Below are positions 9,701 through 52,897 of a stretch of DNA of 64,000 nt, piece after piece. The notes below the pieces were generated by a model. The model did not search any database. It saw only the letters and a list, made by a program, of their open reading frames with translations, and had not been told where the DNA came from. Source of the stretch: Lophium mytilinum (taxonomy: Eukaryota); NCBI GenBank assembly GCA_010093605.1, contig MU004194.1:6156-70155 (forward strand), read 5' to 3'. A program made the translations under genes and the position numbers. How positions within the stretch are numbered: position 1 is the first letter of the stretch; every line of letters begins with the position of its first letter.

Positions 9701-10150
9701 CTAAATAAGTTACTTAATTATAAGAATCTTAGTTCTTTCTATATTATAAAGGTTATTAATAAGGGCTATACCTTTTAACTTAACTTTATAAATATAAGCC
9801 TTAAAGGCTCTTAAATATACTCTATCTTCTATCTATACCTACTCTATCTAGATAGATTCTATCTACTACTAGGCTAATACTAGCTACTACTACCTTCTAT
9901 CTAGGTTATTAATTCTATTACCTTTAAATTAGTTAAATAACACGCGATTACGCGTATTATTAATAGCTACTAGCGTAGTTATAGACTAAAAGAACACCGC
10001 TACCTTAAATATAAAGAACTCTATAAAGAATACTCTACTCTATAGAAATAGTAACTATAGAAATAGTTTATATCTAAAGCCGCGGATCTAATTAGTAAAT
10101 TCTATAACCTTAACCTAGATACTAATAGTTCTTATCTAGACTTTAAACTA
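6753..10150 (+). pseudogene. RIP'd pol: RT, RNase H, integrase and probable chromodomain
   Basis: Remnants of FCxDYRAIN and RYPLPLI (~6930-6995), MPFG (~7142), AYxDDILVY (~7229-7256), TDAS and NYEIYDKELLAIV (~7703-7850), GHPG (~8771), ISDR (~9145) and HPETDGQTE (~9235-9265). Confidence 0.85.
8354..8401 (+). repeat. (AACTCT)8 hexanucleotide repeat inside the pol linker
   Basis: Directly visible. Plausibly RIP'd GACTCT (Asp-Ser) codons. Confidence 0.85.
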
Positions 10151-10568
10151 AATAATAATTAGCGCGCGCGTCTTACTAATAATAATAACCTTAATAATAA
10201 TAACCTTACTACTAACTATTTATAATTATAATTACTCTATACTAAGCTATATTCTTATCTTTATATAATTACTTTACTATATCTCTATACTATAATTAAT
10301 AGCCTTATATAGTTTATTATAACTTTATATATAATAACTATAATAAGATTAGAATCCTTAGCTGTATAAAGTAGGCTAAGCTGTTATAATAGAAAAGCCC
10401 TTATAAGTAATACCTTAAGCACGCTAGCTTCTTATATATTAGTATATAACTAATAATTAACTAAACTATACTATATAATTTACTATACTAGATAACTATA
10501 CTCTTATATTTAAACCTAACACGGCCTATAATACTATTTTTTTTTTCTTTTTCTTTTCTAGTATTCTT

Positions 10569-10582
10569 AAATAGGGGGGTAG
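10569..10582 (+). other. Polypurine tract
   Basis: AAATAGGGGGGTAG immediately before the 3' LTR. Confidence 0.7.
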
Positions 10583-10824
10583 TATAATAGATTATACTCT
10601 ATTTTCTAGTTATATATTTATCTATTACTAGCCTTCTACCTCTATACCTATTATATTACCTTGCGCTGCCTATGCGCTAGCCTACCTAGCGCCTATACGC
10701 CTCTCTTCTCTATATATATAGTTTCTATCTAGAAGTCTTTCTTTCTACTTCTTATATAACCTTTTAAAATTAATCTATCTAGTTATCTTATACTACTAAG
10801 CTTCTCTATACTATAACTATAATA
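10583..10824 (+). repeat. 3' LTR
   Basis: Direct repeat of 2956-3197, followed by TAAAG. Confidence 0.9.
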
Positions 10825-19578: not shown

Positions 19579-20960
19579 TTAATGCCCGCTCTCCACTCCT
19601 AAGACGTTTCCTCCCTTTCCTTGCAAACTCTCGTTCACCTTATTACGTAGTCCTTTCAAATTTCCGGACTGTTGCGATATGCTCGTCGCCTTCTTTCGAG
19701 TCGTCCGTCGTACGGAAATTGGTGTATTCGATGAGTTCTTGATAGTTTCATCTAATTCGGAAGCAGATGAAGTATTGACGCTGTCCGACTGCGCCGCTTT
19801 GATCCCGTTATCGCGATCAAGTTTAGTTTGGGCGTGCACTCGGCTCTTCTCGTATCGTGCAGATACATCACCTCCTTTCCACATAGTATTGAGCATACTA
19901 TCCCAGATTGTGAAGAATGGCTGAGAGAAGTTTGTCTTGATGCCCCAGCTTTGGTGGTGAATATCGTGGTAAGCGGCATTGTTTGAAGTAATAAGCTGGA
20001 GTGGGTCGAACGGGAGCGAGTAGCCACAGTGGTCGTCCACGGTCTTGATGGTTGCGCAGGTAAAGAACCACATTGACTGCCTCACGGTCATGCCAGAAAC
20101 GAGGTAAGCCAAACCAGTGCCTAGTGTATCGAGGAGGAACCCTTCGAAGGGATGGTTGTAAAGGGCGCCATAGGCGTAAGGCACATAGAGCTTGTGGTGT
20201 CGCGAGTGGAAGGTAGCTGAGACTATTGTTATTGACCGAGGCATGAAGGTACGAATGGAGGGGGTGCGGTAAACGTACTATATAACCACTTGTTCACGTG
20301 CATCGCGCGATGCAGGAAGTATTGCCAGGTGTCAACGACTACAATCCCAACGAAGAACTGGAACGCAGGCACAGCTACCCAGTACAGGGCCTTTGCGAGC
20401 AGCATTTCCCAAGGCGCAAACGCGGGCGCAAGCTCACTTTGACCGTTCACAGAGACCAGCTGTACCATCCCCGGGTATCTGCCGCCTGTGAGGATCGACG
20501 CTGCGATTGGGTGGGTAAAATTGAGGTTGCTAGCCAGAGCACCGGCGTTCAACCCGACAATCGATAGCAAAGTGGGAACATAGTGTTGTGCTTTCCGAAT
20601 CAACAGAGCCCAGCTAGCAATGCTGTACTCTTCCTTCCCGTATGTTGCTTCGTCGTCAAGCAGAGTCAGCCCGAAGCCGAATATGGTCTGGATAACCTGC
20701 TGAATGATGACGTCGCGGAACACGTCCCAGCGGGAGACATGGTTTCGCTTTAGAACCTCGGCCGGGGTGTGTAATCGGTATTGTGGGAATAAGTCGTACA
20801 CATCAATGACGTGGAATATCATGGATACCGTCCAGTATGCGAGGATTGGGAGCAGTAGGGTCGTGTACTCGTCCTTCAGCCATGATATCAGGGGCGGGAC
20901 CGGCTTTAGCGTGTAGGACGGGAGCGGAGGCAGCTCGGACTGCATGGTTGCGTTGACCAT
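19579..20960 (-). CDS. sur2: Sphinganine C4-hydroxylase (fatty acid hydroxylase family)
   Basis: His boxes HRAMH, HSRHH, DDHCG and YHDIHH, and an N-terminal LPPLPSYTL. One intron at 20217-20278. Confidence 0.92.
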
Positions 20961-23254: not shown

Positions 23255-26200
23255 ATGAACTTATACGGACGGGTGCAAACCCACCAACGGGACGAGAGCG
23301 GCCCGCAACTGCCCCCAAATACGCCTACTAAGCAGCGTAACAAATCGGGAGAAGCCATGGAGGCAATTGTGCGCAAGCTTGAAGACCGTTGGGAACTCGG
23401 TCTATCGATACGCGGGCCTGATTGGACCCCTAGCACCAGCAGGCGAGGACCCACCGATGAGGTCTATGGCATGATTAAGAGGTTATATTGGTCTGCTGAG
23501 CCTGCTCTCCATGAAATCGTGGATTTATTCTGGGCGAATGCACCTGATAAGCGGTACAGCCCTGAGCGACTGGAGTATCTCAGATCGCTTCTCGTCGAAA
23601 AAATCGGGACGAAGAGGAAATCGGACCAGGAGGGACCTCGAAACAACCCTGCTAAAATCTTGCGTTCGCCGTTGTGTAAGTACTCTTAACTTACCGGAAG
23701 CACGTAGCAATACACTGCTAACGTGTAGAGGCTACTAGCTAGCCAAGTCTTCGGAGACCTTACTGAAGTACGAGATCTCACTGAAGTACAAAATAATGAC
23801 TCGTATCAATCGTATGTCACCGCCCTACAAACTCGATCCGGTACGCCGACAGACGATGAGGATGATCAGGGAGTCTACATTTCGGCCCCTCCTTCACCCT
23901 CAATGGACGCTATGAATAGACGTTCAAACGCCACCCAAAAAACACCAGCACAAGGTTCTGGAGCTTCTCCGAGGAAGAGAAAGTCGGAGTCCTTTGCAGA
24001 TGAGAGCCCCTCAAAGGCATCCAGATCATCAAGTGGGAGGAAGTCTCGAATGGGTCCACCGGAATCTCCGTATCTACCCGCGAGAGTGTATTCCAGTGGC
24101 ACACTATTTCCAGCCAGCTCCGCGAACACGTCAGCGAACACGTCGTTCGCGACTGATGTTGCTGAAGTCTTTTCCCAAGCGGATCCTCGAGATGTCGAAA
24201 CGGCTGACACTTCGTTCGCAAGCGACATATACGAGGACGCTGTCGAAGACGATGCAGGCGGTGGTGAGGTCAATTATCCGAACTTACGCGTGAGTAGTTC
24301 CGCTACGATGGGTTCTCTTGACGATGATGAGCTGTGGATGGCCCTCGAAGCTGTGAAGGATGTGGAAGAGATCCTATCCCAACCTCTGGAGGATCTTTCG
24401 ATTCACAAGGACGATCCAATCGTGAATAAGGATCATGCCGGCCACCTTCCTCGATCCGTTGAAGGCCCTAACAGGCTCGAAGTCTCCGAAGAAGGAGAGA
24501 ATAGTCGGCATGAGCCTGTCCGCTTGGAAACACTCGCAGAGGCGGCAGTCCCCTCTGTGCAACATGTTATAGACGAGAGTACCACTACAGCACAGCCAGC
24601 TAACCAAGTTTCACCTTCCCGAGCAGCGAACAGGAGTCCTAAGAGATTTCCAATTGAGCAACACCAGATCCGGGACCTCCCACGTCAAGGGCTATTCGTC
24701 GACAATGACCCTCTTGAATGGAAGGATGCTCCCTTCCACGTGCGGTGGGAATGCCTCAGAATCGCACAAGAGCTTGGCCTGCAACCTCTAGAGGTCATGG
24801 GGCACTATGTCTCGCAATTCTCCGACTATGATATGTTCCTGACTGGAGTCATATTGAAATTGCCGGACACTCCAGGCCTTCGGAAGATGGAGAAACCCTC
24901 TCGGAAAATGTGGCTAGCTGCGCAAGATAATTTCGAAGGCTACACTTTCTCGGGAAAGGTTGGCTTCAATGAGACCAATATTGGGTCTTTGTTCAAATTG
25001 AGCCTGGAACCGTTGCAGAAGCTCCAGTCTTGCCGTTTCCAGCGAGCCTTTGGATCAGATCGGCTTCTTTACCTGACCATGCCGTCCCCACACAACATTC
25101 CTAAAACCATGAGCCGGATCAAAGATCAAGAAAAGAGTCTACGAGCTAGATTTGTGGAATGGTTGCGCGGGACAGACCATTCGTTACTCGGGCGAACGTG
25201 GAGAGCTTTCCACGTCGAAGAAAAAGCGGACAAAAAATCAGTCCGGGAAAACCGTACTTTCCAGTACAGGGTGGTGCTTTTCGCAACATCTGGTACTGAC
25301 ATTCGTTCTGAGTCAGCCGAGTATGACCCGCGACGCCATTCTTTACGGCCTGAATTTACTATTGATGGTTTCCTGGACTGGTTCATGTCCTTCGAAGAAA
25401 ATCTAGGCCAAAAATTCTGCAAGGCATATGCGCGAATTGATCTGGGCCTTTCCAGAACGGCTCCAACCATCGTATTCCGTCCGTCCCAGGTCCGATTTGT
25501 AGCTGACACTTTTGCGGACGGCAGTCCCGAGGATAGCACTTTCAATGACCCAAGGCTAGAATGGCCGGAAAATGACGGGGTTGACCCCAGCAAACCTCCC
25601 GTTATGAACGATGGTTGTGCACTTATATCCCTTGGGGCAATGCGCGAGATCTGGAGGATGCAAGGAAAGGCGGGACCGGTTCCTAGCTTTTGCCAAGCTA
25701 GGATCGGTGGTGCCAAAGGAATATGGATAGCTAGCGCGTCGTCGACAACAACAAACCCAGCCCATCGGGACATCTGGATCGAAATCACGGAGAGTCAGCT
25801 CAAGTTTAATCCTCATCGCGAAGATCTAAACGACGACACATACGACTCAAATCGGTTGACTTTCGAGGTGGTCAAATTTGGAACAAGTGTCGTGAATTCA
25901 GAGCTTCATTTGGCCTTCATCCCCATCATGCTGGACCGAGGTGTTCCACAAGCTACATTAATAAAGCTGATGAATGACCGATTAGACTTTGAGAGGGCAG
26001 AGCTGCTCCAAGCTGTCGAATCCCCGAAAACTTTGCGGACATGGCTCAATAAGCAACAAGCACGAGAGGAAGAACGCCAGCGAGACGGAGACATGCTCTG
26101 GCAAGCGAGTATGCCATTACGGCTGCCAGAAAAGCTTGTCTTCCTCTTGGAGTCGGGATTCTCTCCCGCAGTTTCGCAATACTTGGCGGACCAAACGCAC

Positions 26201-27628
26201 CGCTTTCTTGGGTATGTTCTGAGAGACATGAAGAGAAACCTGAGACTCCCTGTCGGAAAGGCCGTAAATCTGATAGGTATTGCGGATCCCTACGGTGTCC
26301 TCAAGCCCGGAGAGGTTCATGTAAACTTCTCATCCAACTTCATCGACGAGATGACTGGAGAAAGCTATACGCGGTTGGACGGCATCGACGTTCTTGTCGG
26401 TCGCCAGCCGAGTTTGCGCAGATCGGACATGCAACGAGTTCGCGCTGTCTGCAAACCGGAACTTGAGCATCTAGTCGATGTCATAGTGTTTCCAAGTCGC
26501 GGCAGCTTCCCACTCGCTGGCAAATTGCAAGGAGGTGATTATGACGGAGATATCTTTTGGACCTGCTGGGAACCGGAACTTGTGAAGCCTTTTCTCAATG
26601 CGCCAGCACCAACTACGTCACCATCAGCAGAGGGATACAAAATGAAAGTTGATCGCCGGACTCTGAAAGACGTTCTGGGGTCAGGGCCGCAAAGGGACGT
26701 AGAGAGTTATCTTGCGAAGTCCTTTGAGTTCCGGTCTGCGCAAACTTTTCTGGGCAGAGTCAAAAACTTTCACGAAAAGCTTTGCTACTTTGAGAACACA
26801 ATCGACTCTCCTGGAATCAACCTCCTCTCCGATATCCATGATCTCATAATCGACGCTGCAAAAAATGGCATCATCGTAGATGAAGATTGGTTCTACGAGC
26901 TGATCAGTGACCCGAGAATTCGCAGCCGGAACCCCAAGAATCCGGCCTACAAAGCGGCCATGAAAGACAACTGGGGAAAACCAAAGATGGGCGAAAAGCC
27001 GAAAACTTACGTCTACGATGCAAGCAAGCCGCTCGACTATTTGTACTTCCGAGTGTTATCACCACACCTTGATAAGACTCTTAGCCTGATCGAAGAGTCA
27101 TGGACAACATCCACTTGCGAAGACCCACACCTTATGGCAGCATACGACAAGGAAATGGCAGGTCAACATGAAGATGAGCTCAAGCTACTGAGAACGAAGT
27201 TTGCCGAACTCTACTCAACATGGGTCGTTAGGACTAAGAAAATGGATGGTCATGATCGTAAGGCAGACGACTACAACCTTGCTATCGAAGACTGCTACGA
27301 AATTTACGAGTCAATCCTGCCCTCGGAAAGCGCCCCATCTTACTGGGTGGAAGAAGACATCCCCGGTCGTACTCCTTATTGGAAGCTACTGAAGGCATCT
27401 GCTTTGCACAATTTCCAAGGCAAACATACAACCTTCACTTATCACTGTGCGGGACGAGAGCTCGCTCTCACCAAGGCTTATGCGTCTGGTCGCTATCGGG
27501 TGCTTACGGAGGCAATGTACGGCCTCTTGAAGCCGAAGAAGGCTAAGGCCCTTACGAGAGATGCCGGTGTGCCGCGGGGCGGCGAAATGGCAGAATACGA
27601 TGATGCCCCGGATGACTTTGAGGAGTAG
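23255..27628 (+). CDS. qde-1: RNA-dependent RNA polymerase, QDE-1-like
   Basis: NDGC, QARIGGAKGIW, GIADP and the catalytic GGDYDGD (the DYDGD variant seen in QDE-1). An intron at 23676-23738 joins the 144-aa ORF in frame with the 1241-aa ORF. Confidence 0.9.
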
Positions 27629-28991
27629 CTAGAATGAGGTCCTCAAGTATCTTGAGTTTCCCGATTACAGGAAGCTGTGGACCTTTACAACAAACGGAGC
27701 CGTGAAGGCCGGGACTCAGACACGAAGATTGCAACATCATCTACAACTATTCTTGGGAGCTCATATTTGTCCAGGGCAGAAACTTTACGGTTGGACATGG
27801 CTCGATCTCGGCAGGATATCACTTGTTTCATTTTCTGGGTTTCATTATTGGTTTGGGAGTGTTTATAGGTCCTCTGATATTTTTGCTTTGTTTTCCATAT
27901 ACCCATAGATCCATCCAGCGATCTAAGCGTGTGTGCTCTCGGCACAAGCTACCTTGTTTTTCATCATTTCTTCCCCTTTTTGGTCTCTTTGCCTCAGCAT
28001 TGCTGAGATGTCCCTCGAGTTATGAGTTTGGGAGATGTTTTCACGGATCTCCACGGTTAATGATGTCTGCCCTTGAGGCTTTTCTTTGTCACACCTCGGT
28101 AATCTAGCGGTAGTACTAGTTCTCTATACTCAAAAGCCATTCTTCTTCTAATCTGCTCTTGCTACATTGTGATTCCAAAGCATGATTCAACACGAGTAAC
28201 TTACATCTCGCATTAGAATCCTAGCACCTCTTTCCTCTCTATATCACATAATCACCTCCGCTTCCCAATCCTGTCTATCACTTCGCCGCAATCTTGGGCG
28301 CCCTTCGTTTCCTAGGGCATCTGATCCGTCTTTATCTCCCTTTCCCGAATGACATCGTCTTCTTACTCCGTAACTAATTCCCGGGTCCCTTCACTCCCAC
28401 TACGCGTTACGCGCAGTCCTAAAGCAGTCTCCACATCATGCTCGCCTAAGCTTATCAAATTTCTCCTCCATACCATCACCCATACGCTAAGTCCTACCAT
28501 CAGGAGCGTTGTTGCGGCGATACTGATTCTAGCATATATGAACTTTGTGAAACGAGACAGCAATTTGGGTGGAAACACACGACCTTGCAACGCGAACATC
28601 GGGGATGGATCTAACATACATCTTCGCTGTCATAATGGCGTATTGCCAGTTGTTTCCACTACTCAGTGCTAGAAAAACTTTATAGCTTCAGGTAACCCGT
28701 ACTCTATATCCGCAGATTTGATGTCCTTTGTCTGAACATTGATAGTACAAACCAAGCCATCCCCACAGATTCCCGGTTTCTCAACGTGCCAAAGTTATCG
28801 TAACTCTCCACAGGTCGCAATTGAAGCATGAAAACTGCGATAATACGGAACAGGTTGATGTCTTTACTCCGGAGTATCTTCGCTGTCTTAAGCAGACCCC
28901 GTTCCTGCGGGCCCAGATGGTAGTGAGCAAGCTCTGAGGTCGAAGAAGTTCGTTTCTTAATAGCCCCAGGGCCCTGCCGCAAGACGACAAC

Positions 28992-30512
28992 TCAAATGTA
29001 GTCCCAACGACTATCGTTGTAGGGATGAAAATTATCATTCCCAACACCAGGTGGCCCAGGATCGTACTTGTTATTGAGGCCCCAAAGATCCTCCCAATTG
29101 TCCAGAATCTCTGAACTTCCGGCGGAATGTTTTTCTTGGTCGGTCACCTCAAGGAGTTCTCCTTCATACTCGTGCTCCTTCGTAGGAAGGGCGCTGATAT
29201 CACCGCCGTTCTTCAACCAATCAGCCACTCCTGCTTGAGTGACTTCTTTAGTCGGGTTAGACCCCAGCAGAAACCTGACCGGTCGCGAGCTCATCAAGCT
29301 TGCGCGGTAGAGATACTCTTCACGGATATCTTTTGAGGCGCCTTGCATGTTCTCGCGTAAGAGTGTAAGCTCGGTTGGGCCGATGAGCTTTTGCAGGTCC
29401 TGGAAGCAGCTCGAGGCCGCATAGGCCGCTGTATCGGCGGCATCATTACCTTTCGAAGTACTATGACCTGGAACCCACCGAAGCTCTAAGTTAGCACCCG
29501 CTTCATGCAATGCTTCCGCTCGCTCGTATGCTTCAGCGAGTACAAGACGTGAAGAAACTACTGGGCCTATGAGGATGGGGTTGCCATTGTTCAGGCACAT
29601 TAGAGCATTCTGCGAGTCAGTATACATGATTACCTTCGCGTCACGCTTCTCGTGAATGTCTTCTAAGGCAAGCTTCAAGGCCTCGGAAATGGCGTGAAGC
29701 TCTGCATCATTAGTATCCCCGCAGTTCCGCCCAATAGGGTAGCCAATCTTCTTAAACCCCGACCTGTCTGGCTTGAGGCAAGTGACTCCTGCTCCCATGA
29801 AGCTATGATTGTTAGAACTCCCGCTACGTACTGAACCGTCCGTCCAATACGTCCATTCATGGCCAGATTTTGGCCCCTCACGTTGGATTGAGTGGTCGAG
29901 AGCGTCAGCCCGATCATCGATGATGATTTTACCTGGGAAAGTGCGTTTAACACGACCCGTGCCAACGACTGAGTTATAGAGTCGTTTCATCCGAAACTTT
30001 TGTACTCTTTTCGCCTGCTGGCGTGTCGGATCTTGATTAGTGGATACGGCTGGTTTCGGGGGAAGATGAGAAAGACGCTGTTGGTTGATATTTGCGGTCA
30101 CCTGGCTCGCGACGGTACCTCTATTACGTCTGTGTTTGTATCCAGGCACATGGAAACCGGGACGGTTGCTGCTTAACGATGGATTGTTCCTTGTAGGCGT
30201 TCCGTTCGGGCCCTGTGGAGCAGTGACCTGGAAGTTGAGTGGTGCATTACTGTTAGTCCCAAAGTTGGGTACGAAGGGACGTTGAGGGAGTTGTTGAAGG
30301 CCGGTATTGTTCGTATGGCCATTGTTACTCCTAGGCGCAACAGGATCTGGTGGTAGACTATTCACTGGACGAGCCGGCAAGGGGTGAACCATATGGCGCC
30401 GGTGGCTGGTAGTTGGGCGAGGGGGTAACGGGTGAAGCATTCCACTGCCAAGTAAGTTCAACCCAATAGGAGTTTGTTGTGGCCCAGCATGGCCATGCCT
30501 TATACGTCCCAT
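28992..30512 (-). CDS. Stand-alone RNase H1-fold protein with a Pro/Asn/Arg-rich disordered N-terminus (gene A)
   Basis: WTDGS, DAELHAI, YTDSQ and WVPGH...GNDAAD give a complete D-E-D-(H)-D set. TATA-like sequence on the minus strand near 30610. Confidence 0.88.
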   Translation of the reverse strand: MGRIRHGHAGPQQTPIGLNLLGSGMLHPLPPRPTTSHRRHMVHPLPARPVNSLPPDPVAPRSNNGHTNNTGLQQLPQRPFVPNFGTNSNAPLNFQVTAPQGPNGTPTRNNPSLSSNRPGFHVPGYKHRRNRGTVASQVTANINQQRLSHLPPKPAVSTNQDPTRQQAKRVQKFRMKRLYNSVVGTGRVKRTFPGKIIIDDRADALDHSIQREGPKSGHEWTYWTDGSVRSGSSNNHSFMGAGVTCLKPDRSGFKKIGYPIGRNCGDTNDAELHAISEALKLALEDIHEKRDAKVIMYTDSQNALMCLNNGNPILIGPVVSSRLVLAEAYERAEALHEAGANLELRWVPGHSTSKGNDAADTAAYAASSCFQDLQKLIGPTELTLLRENMQGASKDIREEYLYRASLMSSRPVRFLLGSNPTKEVTQAGVADWLKNGGDISALPTKEHEYEGELLEVTDQEKHSAGSSEILDNWEDLWGLNNKYDPGPPGVGNDNFHPYNDSRWDYI

Positions 30513-30714
30513 GACTAGGCGGTCGGACAAGTAGCTTTGGCTGTCGAGGAGGTGGGGTGTGTTGTGGGCCTAACAGTGCAAAGTGTGGTGNNNNNNNNNN
30601 GGGGGCTTGTATATATCTAAATCTAAGATGTGGGCCGAACTGAGATAATGCGGGTTGAAGCTGCAACGCCGTGAATTGCAATTCCACTGAAACCCCACGT
30701 GAATCAGTTGTCAT

Positions 30715-31150
30715 CTAGTTTCAAGCAGTGTAGATTGGACTGCGTCTTGGTTAGTTGGCTGCGTAGTAGTCAGGCTCCCCCTTGCAGCGGTGTCCAGTGA
30801 GCAATACTTGAGTCAAGCAGCGATGAACTCGTGTGCCCAAATTGGTAGTTAAGTCTGTGCACACTAATTGATCACTGCTTGAGGTACCTCAAAAGACTTT
30901 GAAGGTCCGAAGGAGATGTAGAGTTTTGAGCAGTGTAGATTAGGCTCCCCTTGACTAACCATCTGCTTAGCAGCCAGGCTACCCCCTACAGTAGCGTTAG
31001 ATCAACAAGACTAAAGCTTCTTTGGTCGAATATAAGACTTTGAATGTAATAGTTGACGCAATAAGAATCAGACTACCTCTTGACACGGTGTTCACCGACT
31101 TGTGGGGCCACCTCTTACAGTAGTGTTAAGTGAGCAACGTTGAAGCATTC
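30715..31150 (+). repeat. Dispersed repeat family, three tandem degenerate copies
   Basis: AGCAGTGTAGATT at 30724 and 30929 (205 bp apart). A third core, AGACTACCTCTTGAC...CTTACAGTAGTG..GTGAGCA, lies at ~31070-31137. Confidence 0.75.
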
Positions 31151-31577
31151 TGTGTCTCGATTGAATTGAGAAGGTTGGAAGTTTAAAGAAAGTGTTATTA
31201 CGGACCAGCCGAAAACCGTGGCTTCAGTGTATCTTCATAAGTGAAACAAAACCTAACTCCCGTGATCAGAAACACACTCTTAACAAATCCATCTCGCTGA
31301 CCTAGCCGACGTTGCGGGCCCAAGGTACTCCGCTACTCCAAGACGATCCAGTTTTCGCAGCCCCAAATCGGAGTGGCCAAGTCTTGACATTGCATGCAGT
31401 CATATTGTCATTACTCAGGGGGGGTTCGCAAGGTTCAATCCAGTCAAGACTCTGTATCCCAGATTACGACGGACGAGTTCTTACATTAGCACGCAATCCA
31501 GAATCGTGCCTCCGGCAGCGTCCCAACTACTCTCCTACCCTCCAAAATCATTGGGCATTCGTCCACATATGAACTCC

Positions 31578-33494
31578 CTACGGATGAGCTAATATACTGC
31601 TATTTTTGGTGGGCAATGCGTCAATGTCCCCTCCATCCTCGACCCACTGTGTGACGGACTCCTCCGTAAGCTCTCGAGAAAGGTCATTCTCAAGCCAGAA
31701 TTTCATTGGCCGCGCAGCGTGTCTACTGACCCGGTGGAAGAACTCTTTCCGAATGCCCTCAGCCGCCCTTTGTAATGCATTGGGGAATATTTGAGCAAGC
31801 TTCATCATATTGTAGGAGTCTTCGACCCGATGAGCGGTCATAATTGCTGCAGAGTTTGCCCATAGCTTGCCTTCAGACGCTTGCTGAGCCGTGAGCGGTC
31901 GAATCGACACCTCTACGCCAGCATTTGCTAACTCGTGTGCATAATCATACGTATCGACGAGAGCAAGACGTGCAGAAATCATCGGTCCGAGGGCCACTGG
32001 CTGACCGCATTGTAGAGACTTTAGAAGGGCTTCCGAATCAGCAAATATGACTACCGGAGCTGCCGAGCCTTCTCGCGCGCGGTCTAAAGCGAGCCGTAGT
32101 GCACTAGCCATCGCGAAGAGCGATGCATCGAGCGTATTACCTACATTACGCCCAAGATAGTGCCCTTTAACGTCCACTTCCTCGCCCTCTGGTGCTAACC
32201 ACGCAACTCCAGCGCCTAAGAACGTGTTGTTGCCCCTGGCATCGTGTTTAAGATACCCGGCCGTCCAATATGTCCAGTTGGAGGGAGCGGAAGTGTGTCC
32301 ATGGTGTCGCTGTGGCGTTGGGGGTATGGCCAGTTCAACATAAGTATCAAGCATGATCTTGCCTGGAAATGGGCGTCGGGTCTCTTCTGTGCTAGCAATT
32401 GAGGTGAGAATTTGCGATAGTACGGGTTCTCTAGGATGGATTGCCGGCGATAAGGTGAAGATTGGAGGATCATTGAAGCCGCCATATTCCTTCCAATCGA
32501 TCATCCATGCAACCGGTATTTCTCGCTGGTGGTCTGACGCGAGCACATAACGTATGGGGTACGGAATACCCTTCTCAACTCGGTACAAAAACTCATATCT
32601 TATGTCCCTTTCCGCTCCAATCATCTCAATTGGGAAAAGGACGGTCCCTCTCGGGAGACCTGCATTATGAAGGAAGTTTTTGTAGTTCTCCGATGCAGCC
32701 CCAGCGGCCTGATCTGCAGCGACGTTTCCGGCGGATTTGCTATGCGCTTTGATCCATCGAAGTGTAAGAGGGATCCTCTCTTCTTTCAAACGCTCGGCAC
32801 GTTCGTATGCTAAAGAAAGCGCGAGCTTTCCTGATCCCATTGGTCCTAGAATCGTCGAGTTGCCGTTCTTTAAAGCTTTGAGTATTGCCTGCGAGTCTGA
32901 GTAAATGACAATAGACGCCTTTGATCCAGCCTGAACTCCTCGAAGTGCAAGTTCTAGAGCTGCAGCAATGGCGAAAAGCTCGGCGTCGTTTGAATCTCCG
33001 AGATTACGGCCAATGGGATATTCCGCTTTCTCGAAAGCATTGCCATGCGCTACCATCCAAGCAACCCCAGCAGCACTGATCTCATCTTTGTTCCAGTTTT
33101 TGATCAAGGATCCGTCAGTCCAATATACCTGTTCAGAGCGTGCAGACCAATGCTCTGCTTCATGGAGATGAGATTGTGCAACGGCGTCGTTCTCCTCCTC
33201 GATGTATATGTTTGCTGGGAATTTGCGCACATTCGGACCGCTCCCAAGAATGCGCTGGGCCATACGCTCGACTCGTGCGTTGCGGTCCTGGACAAGAAGC
33301 GTATATGCCGCATTTCGGGCTGGGAGTGTGGCCGCTGCAGCCTCCTGGCGTTGACGCGCTACCTGGCTTTGGGCGAAGCGATATTTTAATTCGTCTCCGG
33401 TCAATTTTCTGCCCTTCCTAACAGCGTTTTTGGCCAATCTCCGCTGTATCGCTTCGTCATCAAGCGACTGTTTGTTGATACGGCGGCGCGCCAT
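31578..33494 (-). CDS. Tandem double RNase H-domain protein (gene B; domain 1 intact, domain 2 degenerate)
   Basis: Domain 1 has WTDGS, DAELFAI, YSDSQ and WIKAH..GNVAAD. Domain 2 has WTAGY, DASLFA, FADSE and GKLWAN at the same positions. Confidence 0.88.
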   Translation of the reverse strand: MARRRINKQSLDDEAIQRRLAKNAVRKGRKLTGDELKYRFAQSQVARQRQEAAAATLPARNAAYTLLVQDRNARVERMAQRILGSGPNVRKFPANIYIEEENDAVAQSHLHEAEHWSARSEQVYWTDGSLIKNWNKDEISAAGVAWMVAHGNAFEKAEYPIGRNLGDSNDAELFAIAAALELALRGVQAGSKASIVIYSDSQAILKALKNGNSTILGPMGSGKLALSLAYERAERLKEERIPLTLRWIKAHSKSAGNVAADQAAGAASENYKNFLHNAGLPRGTVLFPIEMIGAERDIRYEFLYRVEKGIPYPIRYVLASDHQREIPVAWMIDWKEYGGFNDPPIFTLSPAIHPREPVLSQILTSIASTEETRRPFPGKIMLDTYVELAIPPTPQRHHGHTSAPSNWTYWTAGYLKHDARGNNTFLGAGVAWLAPEGEEVDVKGHYLGRNVGNTLDASLFAMASALRLALDRAREGSAAPVVIFADSEALLKSLQCGQPVALGPMISARLALVDTYDYAHELANAGVEVSIRPLTAQQASEGKLWANSAAIMTAHRVEDSYNMMKLAQIFPNALQRAAEGIRKEFFHRVSRHAARPMKFWLENDLSRELTEESVTQWVEDGGDIDALPTKNSSILAHP

Positions 33495-34586
33495 GATTTG
33501 TGTTCATAGGAGTGCGATTTAGGCAGTGTTAAAGATGGCTTGAAGCCGCAGGTTGGTGGCGCAGATTGTGTTTGAAAGGGTCCAATTGCAAATGAATAGG
33601 TGAATGCCAAGTTGGGACACCCAACACGTGACGACTATTTCCTAACATCGCAACACGGCGATAACGATTGACGGGACTTTGTCTTTCTTACCGTTGATAG
33701 GAAGATGCGCTAAGAGTTGAATGTCCTAAAAGTTGTGCTACACTGGCTATTTTGTTTCTGCGTTCTATTATCAAGACCGAGGATGTTAGTAATATTGCGC
33801 GTCCTAATAAATAAGTGAGGATTCCTCTGCGGTCCGATCTGGATTCTTCCCGCAATCTTGTTCCACGCACCGTGAATTGGGTTACGAAATCGGGCCGTTT
33901 TCCCGCCTGTTCATTTTATGGAGAGTGTTTTGACTTGCGTCCTCTCTTCTCTCTTTGACGTCTTTTGCCGCGCACGATGAACAATACGGTAATCCTTCAA
34001 CTCCTACTATGAACTCATATTGCGCCAATCTTTCTGTGAAGCTCCATTTCACGGGTGATCTGATGCCATTTTTCCTGCACCATGCATCTCCTAGAGATGC
34101 TAGGCCAGCTCCTCAAACTGAAGCTGAGTTGAAAGAGCTCCCCAGAGGTGACTAAACTGCTCATACGGTATGAGAGCGCCCAATCTTGGTCCTAATGTTA
34201 CGATTACATACTTCTTTGTAGATACTCTGAGTTTCGACGTTGGCCCGTCATCACCGACCTATTTCCGGCGACCCAAATCCAGTCCTGGGACTTTGAAACG
34301 CGCAAGGCTACGAATTTGTTTAGTTGGGTCTAGAAGGATATGAAGCGGTGATCGGAGGCATCTTCTTAGAGAAGGATGAAGTGAAGTCAGAGACAGGGAA
34401 GTGTATGTAAGCAGAGAGTGCCACGCTAAACTGTTTATGACAACCGAGGCTTTTGCAGCTCACATCAGCCCTAGAGCGAAGGCCACATCAACCGTACAAC
34501 TCCAACATGGTGCATTCACACCGTCATGATGCTACTCCGTCTTTGTTGCATAGCTACGTCAGTGGGGTAGTGAGGGCAGCTACATC

Positions 34587-35929
34587 ATGTTCAACGTACT
34601 CGACAATTGGGTCGTTACGAACCATGTCATTCCGGCATCGTGGCCTCGAGGTTTCGCACGAGGAGTAAGAGATGAAGAAAGCGGACGACTGCGGCTCGCC
34701 GTTAACGAATATGTGCCTCGGGCAAACATGAGTCCTCAGCCTGGAGACGTCACATTCCTGTTTGCTCATGGTACAGGTTCGACAAAAGAGTCTTATGAGC
34801 GTAAGTATTTCCCGGGCAACTATTATCTCATCCTTCATTTGAAGCGTTTCATTGTCATTCATCAAAGTCTCCAGGCTGAGACTTACATCTTCTAGCATTC
34901 TTCGATGATGTGCTTACCCGGTTCCCCCGTATCCGCGCCATCTGGGCTTTCGATATCGCTTGGCATGGCGCATCCTATCTCCTCAACGAGCACGTTATTG
35001 GAGACGAGCCTGACTGGTTCGACTGCGTCCGCGATATTCTGCACATCGCCAATCATTTCCAGAGAGATCTTCACCAGCCAATGGTAGGAATGGGCCAATC
35101 GTGGGGGTGCTTCAATATTCTTCTGGCTGCTGTCCACAATCCGCGAATCTTTGCCGGCATTATTGCTTTAGAACCTGTTCTGGTTACCGGGTATAAAACC
35201 GGACCACCTCATATGCACATCGCCTTCCTTATGATGAAACGACGAGACCGATGGTTGTCACGCGAGTATGCAAAACGCGCACTCCGGAAGAGCCCTTACT
35301 ACGCAGTCTTTGATGATCGGGTTTTCGATCAGATCATTCGCTACGACCTCCGCGACGTTCCGCTCGAACCACAGACGGCACAGGGTGCGTCCGCAGCATC
35401 TTCGGTCGCACCGGAGGTTACTCTAACGACTCCCAAGGCCATGGAGGCCTATACGATGATGCGCGCGAATCCGCCATTGCCTGGCTATCCTCCTGGGCCA
35501 GACCACAACCCCAATCACTCGAGCCACTCTACACCCGTTATCCCTGGATTCCACCGAGCGGCTGACACGGAAGCTCACAGGCACGTCCCGCACGTGTTGC
35601 CTCCTGTGCTATACGTCTGGGGCTCTCGGTCGTATATCGCGAAACTACCAGGTTACCGACAAATGCTAGTAGAGCAGACAGGAATTGGGCCCGGCGGCAG
35701 CGGAGGAGCACCTGCTGGACATGTTACTGAGACCGTGATCGGGGATTGCGGTCACTGCTTGCCTTTTGAGAAGCCTCATGAGACAGCGAAGGCATTGCAG
35801 CCGTGGCTTAAGCAGCATGTCGATGTCTGGGGAAAACATCGGAGGGAGAGGAAGAAGGAAGGACCATACTGGACGGATACCATAAACCCCGGATGGATTG
35901 AGAGGGCGTCTAAAATATCGAAACTATAG
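34587..35929 (+). CDS. Alpha/beta hydrolase with PTS1 (Lpx1-like peroxisomal hydrolase)
   Basis: FAHGTG..KESYEP, GQSWG nucleophile elbow, GHCLPFEKP and C-terminal SKL. Intron at 34801-34895. Confidence 0.88.
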
Positions 35930-44389: not shown

Positions 44390-45125
44390 GGCTGCTGTAA
44401 GCGCTGTACTTAGGAAGTTTTGAAGCATGACGTCTTCAGAATCGTCGATCTACCAGAGCATAAAGATCGAGAGGCAATGACTATAGGGCCAGCTATTCTA
44501 TAGAGTCATTTGAGCGTTGTAGTTCTCTATAGGCTTCGTAGCTCTATACCACTTTCGAAGTGTAACATACCCGGTTCCCTGATTTTGCTGGTTTCTAGAG
44601 CAGAAAAACTTCAAAATGCAATGACCCTAACCAACCCAGAACCTGGAAACTCTTCGAGCCTTCTACAAGGGTAATATTCTACAGTTCTAGAACCAAATAG
44701 CCCCAGGAAAGGCTGTGGCGTTCCGGAGTAGCACCGCGGGCCCCTCCGTGATAGGTACCATGTCTAGGTGCCGTCGTCTGCACCGCCTCGTAGAGCAATT
44801 CGAGATACTCAGGCCACTATTAACGGAGGTGGGCCCGGGTAATATGCAAGGGTGATCATCCCAGTTTCGGAGTTGTCGGAGTCGTCCACAGCGCCTGCGA
44901 CTGGTTGCAGATGGCATCTACGTTCGACGCTTGTAGCACCGGCACCTCGCCACCGAGACGGCTGGACGGCCACCATGCAAACCTCACATTGCGGTCGCTG
45001 TCATATCCCCTCCATTTCCAGCTGCCAACCACCATGGCCTGCGTTGGATCAGCCACCTTTCCATCACCACTCCCGCCTGGGCTGCAGCCCTCAATTGCAC
45101 CTCTCCCCACGCCACATCCGTCACC

Positions 45126-48100
45126 ATGCCCAAGCAACTCTCGGAGACGGCGAGAGAGCGAGAGTTCTACAAGTATGCTGAACGTTACGTTGCTGATGCC
45201 GAGTCTGAGTCTCACTTGTTGTCGCCCAGGTACTCGCCGCCACAGACGTCCGGGAGCTTCCCATGGATCACTGGCAGCGTCGCCGCATCCTCCCACGATA
45301 CCTCCCTCACTGCGTTTGCTCAACTAGGAGCTCTACGACTGAATGCAAAGCGATGCATCATATCCCTCTTCAACCGCACACAGCAATTCGTCATTGCCGA
45401 AGCTACACAAACCTTATCGCTTCAGAGCGACCTGGTCCACGATGCAGGAGACGCCCTCTGGCTGGGCACTACAGTTCTACCAAGGGAGTCTGGAATCTGC
45501 CAACTGGTTGTCGATATGCCCTCCAACGCTCCATGTCCAGACGATCCGCATTCTCTGGGTGTCATCGTTGTGCCAGACCTTGCGAAGGATGAGCGCTTCG
45601 CCGAACTTCCCTTCGTTGTCAACAAGCCCTTCACTCGATTCTACGCCGGCGTGCCAATCTGCAGTCCCAGAGGTGCACATATCGGATCATACTGTGTCAT
45701 GGATGACGTCCCAAGAGAGGGTATCGGGAAGGAGCATGCCCAGTTCATGAAGGATATGGCTATCACAATAATGGCACATCTCGAGTTGGCACGCTCGCGA
45801 GAAGAACACAGGAGGGGGGAGAGACTTGTGAGGGGCCTGGGAAGCTTCGTGGAAGGAAAATCAACACTCCGAAACTGGCGTGGCGGAGCGACAGTGGCGG
45901 ACCGCACTTACGAGCCTTCTCGCGTGGACTTTGGCGGTGAAGGTCAATTGAACGTGCAACAACAAGACCTACAAAAGGCTCAAGATGAGATCGTAATCAG
46001 CCTAGACCGTTCCAGTACACACCGCGGGTCTGTTTCCACCGATGTCGCAAATCACCAAAGCATATCGACACACTCGACATCAAGGAGTACGTCTGAGCCT
46101 TTACTGCCTGACCAAGCTCCGTCCCCATATCTCACGCCCGCATCGACTCCTCCTCGCAGCCCCGAGCCAACGTTGCGGGGCTCGTCTGGTCATAGTACAG
46201 CGACTGGCCGACAGCCGAGTATGGATTTGCAAGCAAGCATGCTTTCGCTCAACGTAAAGCAGACCTTTTCAAGAGCAGCCAACATCATCAGGGAGTCTAT
46301 GGAGATTGAAGGGGCGATCTTTCTTGATGCCAGCATTGGATCGTTTGGTGGTATGGTCTCCGATGCTAGTAGTGCATCGGACGAGACTTCAGATTCGCTT
46401 CCTTCCTCGTCGGGCGGAGAAAGCGACAAGACTGTAGAAGAGAAGATGAGCGGTATTCTGGGTTTCTCAACTTCTAATAAATCAAGCATCAATGGCGACT
46501 TCACCTCGAAGAACGCGTTGCCAATTCCGGAGACATTTTTGAAAGGCTTACTTCGAAGACATCCAAAGGGAAAGATCTACTACTTTGATGAGGAAGGCCG
46601 CATATCTTCATCGGACTCGTCAGGCGAAGACAGTTCAAAGCGGGTGGGTCGACGCGGGTTCGACTCTACGAACAGATCCAGCGATGGTAGTTCAGCGAAG
46701 AGAAAGAAGGCCCACAAGCGATTTTCGAAGTTCAATGAAGCAGAAACCCTAATCAAGACATTCCCGGGAGCTAGATGTATTGCTTTGATTCCTTTGTGGG
46801 ATAATCATAGGGAGCGCTGGTTTTCGGGCGGCATTGTGTGGACTAATACACCGAAACGAGTATTTACAGCCGAAGGCGAGCTCAGTTACTTGTCGGCATT
46901 CAGTTCAATCATCATGGCGGAGGTAGCTCGCTTAGATGCTTCCATGTCCGACAAAGCGAAAACAGATCTTCTGGGATCCATTTCCCACGAACTCCGCTCG
47001 CCGCTCCATGGCATATTAGGGAGCGTCGAAATGCTGGAAGACTCAGCTGTGACTGCATTTCAGGGTAATATGGTTCAAACTATAGAAACCTGTGGACGAA
47101 CACTGCTTGACACCATCGATCATGTAAGAACACAACTTCTTGTCTGCACGCGCCTGCTAACACACTACACAGCTACTCGATTTCACCAAAATCAACCACT
47201 TCATGGAGGTGTCCAAGAGACATAGGACGCATGTATCCCACAACAATACCGAATCAGCCCCGAGGTCAAAGACTGGAAGCGACATGATGGCCATGAGTGC
47301 CAGGGTGCAACTGGACGTCATCACCGAGGAGGTGGTTGCCGCTGTTTCCGCAGGTTATGACACCCAGAAACGAGCGAAGGCCAATGCCAATTCGAGTCAG
47401 CAGAAGAAAAAGCCAAAGATGCGTCACGCTGACAGCAGTGCTTCCGGGGCCCATGACGCATCATACTCCTCTGATCGATATGGCGATGCGCAGATTAACA
47501 ACGAATTGAAAGAGTATAACCTGGGTGGCGTCATTGTAATACTTGACATCGACAAAGACGTTGATTGGGCTTTCAGCACCCAGGCTGGAGCATGGAGACG
47601 AATCGTGATGAACTTGTTTGCGAACTCTCTCAAATACAGTAAGACCCTTGTGCTCCTTATTTACTGACGCCTACTTATATGATACGTAGCCGCTCGTGGG
47701 TACATCCGTGTATCTCTCAAAGCAAGGCCGCTGCCATCGAGACGCGGAGTATCGCGCTCAAAGATAACATTGATCGTCTCCGACTCAGGCAAAGGCATGT
47801 CCAAAGATTATCTTCGAGGTCGACTATTCCAGCCCTTCGCACAAGAAGACCGACTATCTCCGGGAACCGGCCTCGGTCTCAGCATTATCCGCCAAATCAT
47901 TCTTTCACAAGGTGGCAAGATTGACGTACAGAGTGTTCAAGACGAAGGCACGCAGGTTACTGTCACGTTACCTCTAGCTCAAGCTGAGCCAGAAATCAAC
48001 GGCTCCACGCAGATCGATGACACTTGTCTTACTGATGTCTATGAACAAACCAAGACATTATCGGCATGCTTAATTGGAGTCGAAATTGGCGCGGAAGCCA

Positions 48101-49377
48101 ACAAAGCCAGGAAGCCCTCGGTTCCATTTGATGCTGTGAACGATGGTCCACAAGCGTTGAAGCTGTCCCTGCAAGAGATGTGCAAAGACTGGTTCGGTCT
48201 TCGGCTGGAAACGAAGCACCAAACAGGCCACCCAAGCGACTTGTATCTTGTCGTGGAGACTCCCTTCAACACGGAGGAGCTCACATCTGGGAAGTTGGTG
48301 GCAGAGATCCCTCGGATCGATCAGGACCAGAGCGACCAGCTGCAGCCAATCGTCATCGTACTCTGCAGATCTGCAGCATCTGCATATGCTTTGTCGTCGC
48401 GTTCTCAGCATATTGATTCGAAGGGTCGTGTTGTAGAATACCTTTCTCAGCCGTAAGTCTATTTTTTACGAACTTTATCATCTTGAACGCCCCTGAAGCT
48501 AGTTGTAGTATTGACACGCCTTACTAATATGCTCTTATAGCTGTGGCCCTCGGAAGCTCGCGAAAGCATTGCATCTCTGTTTCGAACGTCGCACATCCGA
48601 TAAAAAGTCTGTAATATCATCTCCAACTTGCACCACGCTACTTGGAGCGCCTCCGCTCGAGGATGATGTCATCAACCAGTTCGGCTTTCCGTCTGTTTCC
48701 TCTATTGCCACAGATGCCACTGGATACTATGATACAGACAGCCCTGTGTCCCCTGGGGCGGTGCCAGTATCCCTTGCGGTACTACACCCGCACCTCCTGT
48801 CCCCGCTCGATCCGAGCACATCTGATGGACCTATCGCATCGATTCCGCAGAATCTGGAAGACAAGGCGGACAAAGTGCCAGGGCCCTTCATGATTGTCGA
48901 TGATAATCATATCAACGTAAAGGTACGACCTATTAGCAGACCCAAAACTTTCAATCGATAGTAATTTAACACTTTCAGATCCTCGCGGCGTTCATGAAGA
49001 AATCCAAGTATTTGTATCGAGTCGCGGAAGACGGAGCTATAGCATTCGACCTTTTCAAAGCCAATCCGGAGGCCTGCAGAATCATATTCATGGGTACGTT
49101 GACAGTATTTGTGCAGTCATGTAATGCAACGTGTTTCTATACTAACAATAAGTGTACAGATATTTCAATGCCTGTCATGGACGGCCTGACGAGCACACGG
49201 CTCATCCGTGCGTACGAACGCATGAACAAACTCAATCCTGCGACGATCATCCTTCTCACTGGTCTTGCGAGTGCGAGTGTGCAGCAAGAAGCCAACGCCA
49301 GTGGCGCAGACTTGTTCCTGACGAAGCCGGTTCGTCTCAAGGATCTAGGAAAGATTCTTCTGGAGATGGGAAAGTGA
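45126..49377 (+). CDS. Hybrid sensor histidine kinase (GAF-HisKA-HATPase-receiver)
   Basis: GAF motif RFYAGVPI, H-box ISHELRSPLHG, N-box NLFANSLKY, DSGKGM, GTGLGLSI, and receiver motifs VDDN, FMDISMPVMDG and FLTKP. Confidence 0.93.
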
Positions 49378-52674: not shown

Positions 52675-52897
52675 GGCCATAAGCCTAGGCACACTACTTC
52701 GCCACTGCTTTGGGTACCGCTACAGGCTTTCGAAGATCTAAGGGCGATGTCAAGTTTCAAGCAGTGTAGACTAGACTGCCTCTTGACTAATTAGCAGCTC
52801 AGTAGCCGGGCTAAACCCCTACAGTGGTGTCGAGCGAGCAGCACCAACGCAAAGCAGTGATAGATCCGTGTGCCAATACTTGTGGTCTGGTACTGTA
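52675..52897 (+). repeat. Dispersed repeat family, copy D
   Basis: The 5' part aligns with 30851-30920. The core and tail align with copy A. Confidence 0.85.

What the first reader, a model, noticed from the sequence alone, without database searches (positions are those of the whole stretch)
28992..33494. Non-canonical RNase H family with its own conserved flanking extensions and no RT
Seen: three modules share an N-terminal RxFPxxI motif, a YxxGRNxG loop, an xLGPxxS insertion and a ~50-aa C-terminal extension (IRxEFxxR...PxxF/YxL...W...GG). There is no reverse transcriptase, endonuclease, LTR or RIP damage, and I see no RNase H1 hybrid-binding domain. Established: TDGS / AELxAI / DSQ / WVPGH / GNxxAD is the RNase HI pattern also used by non-LTR retroelements. 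Inference: a domesticated, locally amplified family, possibly LINE-derived.
Basis: partly seen in the sequence, partly recalled or inferred. Interest (0 to 1): 0.7.

Follow-up and report, generated by a model that had tools for sequence, protein, structure and literature searches.

The report
LINE-derived RNase H genes without RT
Two neighbouring fungal genes encode three related RNase H units that descend from a jumping-gene (LINE) enzyme but have lost its reverse transcriptase, and they belong to a large, uncharacterised family of host genes in Dothideomycete fungi.

Summary
The window has no RT, endonuclease, LTR or RIP signal here. Modules 1 and 2 are Pfam RNase_H with intact D-E-D-H-D. 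Module 3 has lost four of these five residues.

The extensions are not private to this locus. The N-terminal xFxGxI motif also precedes the RNase H of a fungal LINE ORF2 (P0129). The LGP loop and the first C-terminal helix mark a large RT-less family: 152 representative clusters at E<=1e-10, and 1 of the 150 best hits has an RT. All named core members are Dothideomycetes.

Each module has its own ortholog in Mytilinidion resinicola, so the duplications predate that split. Orthologs align over 575 aa without gaps, which neutral drift would rarely allow. RNA contigs cover the two-module gene.

Verdict: a domesticated, LINE-derived RNase H family, present in databases but, by my searches, undescribed. 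Its function is inferred, not shown. Interest is moderate.

The parts
28992..30392 (-). Gene 1, single-module RNase H protein. This is the CDS as in the window's own database protein P0003 (466 aa plus stop). The stop-to-stop frame runs on to 30569. The M. resinicola ortholog P0004 starts at the Met that corresponds to 29990 (MKRL...), so the true start is uncertain.
29160..29984 (-). Module 1 (P0001 res 196-470): N-extension, RNase H core and C-extension. Predicted as one compact domain (pLDDT 88.9, pTM 0.88).
29412..29855 (-). Module 1 RNase H core (Pfam PF00075, P0001 res 239-386). D244, E290, D318, H369 and D379 are all present.
31578..33494 (-). Gene 2, two-module protein (638 aa plus stop, one exon). 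Ortholog of M. resinicola P0005 (XP_033582923.1). Covered by collinear RNA-run contigs at 31533-33096 and 33215-33765.
33231..33494 (-). Basic N-terminal region of gene 2 (res 1-88; pI 11.6; 20 K+R). Predicted as two long helices (H2-26, H33-83; pLDDT mostly 87-96).
32409..33263 (-). Module 2, the active-type module. Its Pfam RNase_H core lies at 32691-33131. Catalytic D, E, D, H, D are present.
31581..32408 (-). Module 3, a pseudo-RNase H (core about 31830-32294). It has no Pfam hit. Catalytic D->A, E->S, H->Q and D->N, with only the third D kept. The same substitutions occur in M. resinicola P0005. The core is 71.6% identical between the two species with no gaps.
30570..31577 (.). Spacer between the two genes. 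It holds a 10-N assembly gap (30591-30600) and copies of a short dispersed repeat (30717-30741, 30922-30946; another copy at 52753).

Best explanation
The locus holds two intact host genes of an RT-less, LINE-derived type-1 RNase H family that is widespread in Dothideomycete fungi.

Proposed origin: an ancestral non-LTR (APE-RT-RNH) ORF2 left behind its RNase H together with the linker that precedes it (xFxGxIxI) and the helix that follows it. The free-standing gene then gained a hydrophobic 'LGP' loop where cellular RNase H1 has its basic handle, and a C-terminal helix (GxDWxxEW/YLW/YR). In the Mytilinidion lineage it also gained a further beta-hairpin plus helix (PVRFLL...W..GG), and it was duplicated twice: once as a neighbouring gene and once in tandem within one gene.

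Modules 1 and 2 keep D-E-D-H-D and most likely cut the RNA strand of RNA:DNA hybrids. Because they lack both the hybrid-binding domain and a basic handle, substrate grip is probably supplied by the added N/C-terminal subdomain and by basic N-terminal regions (pI about 12). Module 3 is a conserved, catalytically dead copy. It probably serves as a binding or positioning domain for module 2, much as the tether does for retroviral RNase H.

Shown here: the anatomy, the fold, family membership, the LINE affinity, the age of the duplications, conservation, and transcription of gene 2. Inferred: nuclease activity, how the substrate is held, the role of module 3, and the cellular role (removal of retroelement or R-loop hybrids).
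For: Pfam RNase_H hits modules 1 and 2. The AF2 model of module 1 has pLDDT 88.9 and both extensions are folded. The best structural match is the human RNase H1 catalytic domain (Z 12.2, rmsd 2.5, 134 aligned, model residues 40-196). Retroviral RTs align from model residue 10-13, that is into the N-extension.

Family size: 789, 152 and 19 representative clusters at E<=1e-3, 1e-10 and 1e-30. RT or endonuclease is present in 1 of the 150 best hits and PF01693 in 0 of 150.

Column counts over 154 aligned domains: catalytic D 130, E 144, D 152, H 143, D 129; G-P of the handle 126 and 124; N-motif F 106 and G 93; C-helix E 103 and R 106.

LINE link: and the trees. The LGP loop is seen in 23 of 24 sampled core rows and 1 of 12 outer rows.

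Orthology: M1-P0004, M2-P0005a and M3-P0005b pair at support 99-100. P0002 and P0005 align over 575 aa with a single one-residue gap. In a neutral simulation the frame stayed stop-free in 3.8% of 1000 trials for module 3 and in 0 of 300 trials for the 575 codons.

Contigs of a run that also holds a spliced (GT..AG) contig cover gene 2 collinearly. The P. nodorum member P0011 occurs as the same protein on 114 contigs.
Against: No enzymatic or genetic data exist. dN/dS could not be computed because no DNA of the orthologs was available. By profile score the family is still clearly related to cellular RNase H1 (human 2qk9, 1.8e-10).

Only one fungal LINE (P0129) carries the N-motif; the other 14 LINEs align only from about HMM position 26-57. 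Basal branching among the fungal groups is unresolved, so capture of a host RNase H by a fungal LINE, the reverse direction, is not excluded. The annotated M. resinicola P0005 lacks module 3's C-extension. The start codon of gene 1 is uncertain.
Confidence: 0.7

Rival explanations
1. Transposon debris: the modules are decaying fragments of LINE ORF2 copies that merely happen to be open.
For: The RNase H type and the N-linker motif are LINE-like. Module 3 has lost its catalytic residues. Heavily RIP-like DNA lies 15 kb away.
Against: There is no RT or endonuclease remnant in the window and no RIP signal in the genes. Orthologs align over 575 aa with a single one-residue gap, and open frames of this kind arose in 0 of 300 and 3.8% of neutral simulations. 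Family-specific shared novelties (LGP loop, C-helix) are conserved in more than 100 of 154 domains. RNA contigs cover gene 2.
Confidence: 0.04
2. Ordinary cellular RNase H1 paralogs, that is housekeeping hybrid or R-loop removal, with no retroelement ancestry. On this view LINEs took their RNase H from this host lineage.
For: The best solved-structure matches by sequence and by fold are human RNase H1 and E. coli RNase HI. The tree is not rooted with cellular enzymes, so the direction of transfer is open.
Against: No hybrid-binding domain is found in P0001 or P0002, or in any of the 150 family representatives. The handle is not basic. The xFxGxI strand before the core is shared with the RT-RNH junction of a LINE ORF2. 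All 15 LINE ORF2s score 45-131 bits against the family HMM, against 44 bits for human RNase H1 with a related profile.
Confidence: 0.1
3. The genes are the cargo of a still-mobile, so far unrecognised element (non-autonomous or RT-less) and not host genes.
For: The family is multi-copy and of retroelement origin. A short dispersed repeat lies between the two genes.
Against: No terminal repeats flank either gene. Each module has a one-to-one ortholog in another species, and both orthologs are reported on a contig of the same length. There is one locus per 64 kb.
Confidence: 0.05
4. The proteins bind nucleic acid but do not cut it, acting as a regulator or scaffold. The catalytic residues would then be retained by ancestry only.
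For: Module 3 shows that the fold is kept without catalysis. The basic handle used by cellular enzymes for substrate binding is missing.
Against: The catalytic D-E-D-H-D is kept in 129-152 of 154 aligned family domains, which points to selection for catalysis.
Confidence: 0.1

Closest known systems
RNase H domain of non-LTR (LINE) retrotransposon ORF2 (APE-RT-RNH type; nearest example here is metagenomic P0129, 1304 aa)
   Same: Type-1 RNase H with D-E-D-H-D. The xFPGxI strand immediately before the core, the 'YLGRN...DAE' loop and a W-containing helix after the core are shared. These are the closest RT-bearing relatives found.
   Different: No endonuclease and no RT. The family has an added ~8-residue LGP loop and a conserved C-terminal subdomain that P0129 lacks. 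The genes are conserved one-to-one between species.
Eukaryotic cellular RNase H1 (e.g. human RNASEH1, PDB 2qk9)
   Same: Same fold and same catalytic residues including the His (Z 12.2, 24% identity; 1.8e-10).
   Different: No N-terminal hybrid-binding domain (PF01693 not found). The handle region is hydrophobic (..LIGPVVS..) and not basic (that the cellular handle is basic is recalled knowledge). There are extra folded segments of about 40 aa at the N-terminus and about 75 aa at the C-terminus.
Dual RNase H of retroviruses (tether/connection plus RNH) and of plant Tat LTR retrotransposons (gRNH-aRNH); passages read in PMC4408406
   Same: Two tandem RNase H folds in one polypeptide, one with a degenerate DEDD and one active (paper passages).
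   Different: Here the active copy comes first and the dead copy second. Both arose by duplication of the same gene and not by acquisition of a second type. There is no RT in the protein.
Automatically named 'RNase H type-1 domain-containing protein' / 'ribonuclease H-like protein' entries of Dothideomycetes (e.g. M. resinicola XP_033582923.1, P. nodorum SNOG_02376)
   Same: These are the same family. P0004 is 79% identical to gene 1's protein, and P0005 is 70% identical to gene 2's protein.
   Different: They are database names only. I found no paper that describes the family.

Membership tests
Type-1 RNase H (Pfam PF00075) | Profile match above the curated threshold | tested here: met
   Module 1 scores 52.1 bits and module 2 scores 47.6 bits against a cut-off of 25.8. 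Module 3 has no hit at E<=0.1, so this feature is not met for that module.
Type-1 RNase H (Pfam PF00075) | RNase H fold (five-stranded sheet with flanking helices) | tested here: met
   AF2 model of module 1 has pLDDT 88.9. Foldseek E is about 1e-8 to RNase H entries. VIA gives Z 12.2 to 2qk9. Module 3 shows the same strand and helix order at lower confidence.
Type-1 RNase H (Pfam PF00075) | Catalytic D-E-D-D (plus His) | tested here: met
   Present in modules 1 and 2. In module 3 only the third residue (D) remains, so this feature is not met there.
Eukaryotic cellular RNase H1 | N-terminal hybrid-binding domain (PF01693) | tested here: not met
   No PF01693 hit in P0001 or P0002 at E<=0.1, nor in any of 150 family representatives.
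Eukaryotic cellular RNase H1 | Basic protrusion (handle) for substrate binding (definition recalled) | tested here: not met
   The handle segment is of similar length but hydrophobic or neutral (M1 NNGNPILIGPVVSSRLVL; family consensus LGP).
Non-LTR retrotransposon ORF2 | Reverse transcriptase domain (PF00078) | tested here: not met
   Not in P0001 or P0002. tblastn with P0129 finds only the RNase H parts anywhere in the window.
Non-LTR retrotransposon ORF2 | APE-type endonuclease (PF03372/PF14529) | tested here: not met
Non-LTR retrotransposon ORF2 | RNase H of the LINE type with its upstream linker | tested here: met
   The family HMM, built without LINEs, gives P0129 131 bits aligned from 'DTFPGQIKI'. 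Tree placement agrees.
RT-less Dothideomycete RNase H family (delimited here: the 96*-supported core clade) | xFxGxIxI strand, LGP handle loop, C-terminal GxDxxxE[WY]L[WY]R helix, and no RT | tested here: met
   All three modules have all three motifs. They lie inside the core clade. The motifs are seen in 23 of 24 (LGP) and about 21 of 24 (C-helix, read by eye) sampled core rows.
Retroviral/Tat dual RNH (tether-RNH) | Degenerate RNH followed by active RNH, downstream of an RT | tested here: not met
   The order is reversed (active then dead) and there is no RT. This is a resemblance of principle only.

The most novel reading that the evidence does not exclude
The family is a host genome-defence nuclease recruited from the enemy. 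On this reading a domesticated LINE RNase H destroys the RNA:cDNA intermediates of retroelements, or hybrids made during aberrant-RNA synthesis. The dead module 3 would act as a hybrid-recognition domain. The tail-to-tail position next to an RNA-dependent RNA polymerase gene (23729-27628) would reflect a functional link with RNA silencing.
Probability: 0.12. Interest if true: 0.75.

Novelty: new variant of a known kind. Interest (0 to 1): 0.4.

Why it matters
Domestication of retroelement genes is well documented for gag, integrase and envelope genes, but hardly for the LINE RNase H. This locus would be a tractable case for four reasons. The family is large, conserved and RT-less, and it has clear shared novelties: a replaced substrate handle and a new C-terminal subdomain. 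One lineage has built an active-plus-dead tandem, which parallels the retroviral tether-RNase H arrangement but arose by a different route. If the enzymes cut hybrids without a hybrid-binding domain or a basic handle, they would show a third way of holding the substrate. If they restrain retroelements, they would add a protein-based layer to fungal genome defence beside RIP and RNA silencing. If none of this holds, the finding is an ordinary uncharacterised paralog family.

Tried and rejected
Whole-genome search of the window's own assembly: no genome is held.

Word-indexed protein searches were nearly blind to this family. The single module gave 2 hits and alignment A3 gave 3 hits. The exhaustive profile search was needed.

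Metagenome context. A3 was too diverse to search with. A1 gave 150 pattern matches and P0006 gave 73, but none was confirmed by tblastn. I therefore obtained no genomic neighbourhoods of relatives, and no test of whether the RdRP adjacency is conserved.

RNA evidence. No listed holder is on record as RNA; the one run, X1, is guessed to be RNA. Gene 1 (28302-30875) and parts of the spacer had no cover in its contigs. This says nothing about expression of gene 1.

Complex prediction of module 2 with module 3 gave no verdict (runs scored 0.03, 0.48 and 0.00; my alignments were not used).

The ESM Atlas returned only generic RNase H clusters. Rfam found no RNA family in 27600-34900 at E<=0.1. Earlier findings of this scan held nothing.

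The literature gave no paper on an RT-less fungal RNase H family under the terms used. One query was rejected for length and was not repeated. Subscription journals are not covered.

The whole-protein AF2 model has pTM 0.56, so the relative placement of the two modules is not defined. dN/dS between paralogs was not attempted, because synonymous sites are saturated at 34-41% protein identity.


Full report
WHAT IS THERE. The window is fungal. Its left 13 kb are AT-rich and RIP-like, and the rest is about 50% GC. The finding covers two minus-strand open frames. Frame 28992-30569 (P0001, 525 codons stop to stop) contains the window's own database protein P0003 (466 aa, start at 30392). Frame 31578-33503 (P0002) has its first Met at 33494 and gives a 638-aa protein. 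A 1-kb spacer separates the two frames. It holds a 10-N assembly gap (30591-30600) and a short dispersed repeat.

A motif scan and an alignment place RxFPxxI, YxxGRNxG, x[LI]GPxxS and IRxE[FY]xxR in each of three modules of about 275 aa. The one exception is module 3, which reads HYLGRNVG. The modules match each other at E 1e-27 to 1e-51 by tblastn, and the 64 kb hold no fourth copy. Pfam RNase_H hits module 1 (1e-13) and module 2 (2.5e-12). No hybrid-binding domain, RT or endonuclease family is found. A LINE ORF2 query (P0129) hits only the three RNase H parts; its one other match (26034-26096, 21 aa, E 0.60) is at chance level. No long terminal or inverted repeats flank the genes, and RIP indices are normal.

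Module 3 has lost four of the five catalytic positions: D->A, E->S, H->Q and D->N, with the third D kept. It also has no Pfam hit.

THE FAMILY. An exhaustive profile search with the three modules plus the closest homolog found 789 representative clusters at E<=1e-3, 152 at <=1e-10 and 19 at <=1e-30. I scanned all 150 listed hits against Pfam.
- 73 of 77 (E<=1e-3) and 58 of 73 (E<=1e-5) hit RNase_H.
- Only one, P0129 (1304 aa), has RVT_1 plus Exo_endo_phos.
- None has PF01693.
- Only the M. resinicola ortholog P0005 has two modules.

In an alignment of 154 domains the following positions are conserved:
- catalytic D, E, D, H, D in 130, 144, 152, 143 and 129 rows;
- F and G of the N-terminal xFxGxI in 106 and 93 rows;
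- G-P of the 'LGP' loop in 126 and 124 rows;
- the first C-terminal helix (P...GxD...E[WY]L[WY]R) with P 106, G 98, E 103 and R 106 rows.

It is therefore specific to a small clade.

Named members of the core clade come from Mytilinidion, Lophium, Paraphoma, Parastagonospora, Ophiobolus, Cucurbitaria, Massariosphaeria, Trematosphaeria, Stagonosporopsis and Plenodomus. An outer group includes Knufia, which is a Eurotiomycete. I checked the taxonomy of three of these genera; that the other genera are Dothideomycetes is recalled. Source names are generic ('RNase H type-1 domain-containing protein', 'ribonuclease HI').

LINK TO LINEs. A search for longer relatives returned 14 proteins. All have RVT_1 and RNase_H, and 12 also have Exo_endo_phos_2. 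A family HMM built without any LINE scores all 15 LINE ORF2s at 45-131 bits.

The best, P0129, aligns from 'DTFPGQIKI', which sits directly before its RNase H core. This is the family's N-terminal motif. Several LINEs also align into the first C-terminal helix, for example P0163 '..nWenEW..'. P0129 lacks the LGP loop.

In a FastTree of 141 rows and an IQ-TREE (quick) of 53 rows, all fungal rows including P0129 separate from the other LINEs (98* and 99*). For the IQ-TREE I picked 38 of the 122 family rows to represent the clades, and dropped 3 of the 15 LINE rows as long or near-duplicate. The RT-less core family is a clade (86 and 96*). P0129 groups with three short proteins outside it (99* and 91). 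The base of the fungal radiation is unresolved, and no cellular RNase H1 was available as an outgroup. LINE origin is therefore the best-supported direction but is not proven.

The LGP loop is present in 23 of 24 sampled core rows and 1 of 12 outer rows. The C-helix is present in about 21 of 24 core rows and 0 of 12 outer rows, read by eye.

AGE AND CONSTRAINT. Each module pairs with its own M. resinicola counterpart: M1-P0004, M2-P0005a and M3-P0005b, at support 99-100. The six form a clade (89 and 92) that is sister to Lophium and metagenome sequences. Both duplications therefore predate the split of the two species.

P0002 and P0005 align over 575 residues with a single one-residue gap. Identity is 80.7% in the active core, 71.6% in the dead core and 68% in the basic N-terminus. 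P0003 and P0004 are 80.7% identical in the core and 84.3% in the C-extension. Module 3's terminal branches are about twice as long as those of modules 1 and 2.

In a crude neutral simulation (substitutions only, no indels), a frame diverged to the observed amino-acid identity stayed stop-free in 3.8% of 1000 trials for module 3, and in 0 of 300 trials for the 575 codons. I could not compute dN/dS because no DNA of the orthologs was obtainable.

EXPRESSION. One public run holds 36% of the stretch's sampled words. Its contigs include one with a 72-nt GT..AG skip in the neighbouring hydrolase gene, so the run contains RNA. Five collinear contigs cover 31533-33096 and 33215-33765, which is the whole two-module ORF apart from small gaps, at depth 3-5.5.

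STRUCTURE. Module 1 with 88 aligned relatives folds with pLDDT 88.9 and pTM 0.88.
- The core spans residues 40-196.
- The N-extension is a strand at 19-21 and a helix at 25-34.
- The C-extension is a lengthened last helix to 201, a strand at 206-209, a helix at 218-228, a hairpin at 237-248, a helix at 250-259 and a strand at 268-270.
- All of these are confidently placed.

The core matches human RNase H1 (Z 12.2, rmsd 2.5, 134 residues) and other type-1 RNases H. No listed type-1 RNase H match aligns more than 143 residues. Retroviral RTs align from model residue 10-13, consistent with the N-extension being a former RT-RNH linker.

The whole two-module protein gives pLDDT 76.6 and pTM 0.56. 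It shows two long basic helices at the N-terminus, a confident module 2 and a weaker module 3 with the same element order. The orientation between the modules is undefined. By sequence the family profile finds human RNase H1 at 1.8e-10 and E. coli RNase HI at about 1e-7.

HOW IT PROBABLY WORKS. This section is inference. Modules 1 and 2 are metal-dependent nucleases for the RNA strand of RNA:DNA hybrids. They lack both of the substrate-holding devices of cellular RNase H1 (the HBD and the basic handle; that definition is recalled). In the ancestral LINE they would have relied on the RT for substrate holding. I therefore propose that the conserved N/C-terminal subdomain and the very basic N-terminal regions (pI 11.6-12.0) took over substrate binding. 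Module 3, dead yet conserved in both species with the same substitutions, most likely binds or positions the substrate for module 2. In principle this resembles the retroviral tether-RNase H and the plant Tat gRNH-aRNH pairs (passages of PMC4408406), but the order is reversed and the origin is by self-duplication. The cellular role is open: clearing retroelement cDNA:RNA hybrids, or R-loops.

COMPARISON AND NOVELTY. The locus is a member of type-1 RNase H (modules 1 and 2). It is not a cellular RNase H1 ortholog, because the HBD and basic handle are not met. It is not a LINE, because RT and endonuclease are not met. The family exists in databases under automatic names. Seven full-text searches found no description of it; subscription journals are not covered. 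I rate it a new variant of a known kind, of moderate interest.

OPEN POINTS. Five questions remain:
- the start codon of gene 1;
- whether the gene 1 frame upstream of the MKRL Met (a P/N/Q-rich, basic stretch) is translated;
- whether M. resinicola truly lacks module 3's C-extension;
- the direction of LINE-host transfer;
- whether the convergent RdRP neighbour (PF05183, 7.9e-124) is more than coincidence.

Noticed in passing
window 23729-27628 (+): A large single-frame gene for a cellular-type RNA-dependent RNA polymerase (Pfam RdRP PF05183, 7.9e-124) lies tail-to-tail with RNase H gene 1, about 1.36 kb away. A 4980-nt contig of run X1 covers its 3' end up to 28138. I could not test whether this adjacency is conserved in other species.
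   Followed up: partly
window 1-13000: An AT-rich block (GC about 25%) with extreme RIP-type dinucleotide indices (TpA/ApT 1.74; (CpA+TpG)/(ApC+GpT) 0.07) and two N gaps (1783-2317, 6133-6752). It gives no tblastn match to the LINE ORF2 P0129 at E<=1.
   Followed up: partly
window 30717-31109 and 52753-52777: A short dispersed repeat. Copies of a 25-nt core lie at 30717, 30922 and 52753. In run X1 the stretch 30876-31109 has depth about 85, with loose ends and a rearranged joint, which suggests a multi-copy or highly transcribed small element. There is no Rfam match.
   Followed up: partly
window 34402-34475: A 72-nt GT..AG intron in the alpha/beta-hydrolase gene upstream of gene 2 (ORF 34880-35929 and preceding exon) is confirmed by a spliced contig of run X1 at depth 75.
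   Followed up: no
window 44937-48456 (+): A histidine-kinase gene split over two frames (HisKA at 44937-47225, HATPase_c at 47683-48456), presumably with an intron. Other neighbours are a fatty-acid hydroxylase (19579-20277), three alpha/beta-hydrolase-type ORFs, a fungal rhodopsin-domain protein (54341-55126) and a 4HBT thioesterase (59944-60564).
   Followed up: no
P0005 (M. resinicola) versus window 31581-31770: The annotated M. resinicola ortholog ends in an unrelated 12-residue tail where the window protein continues with module 3's C-extension (IRKEFFHR...WVEDGG). This is either a gene-model error there or a real truncation.
   Followed up: no
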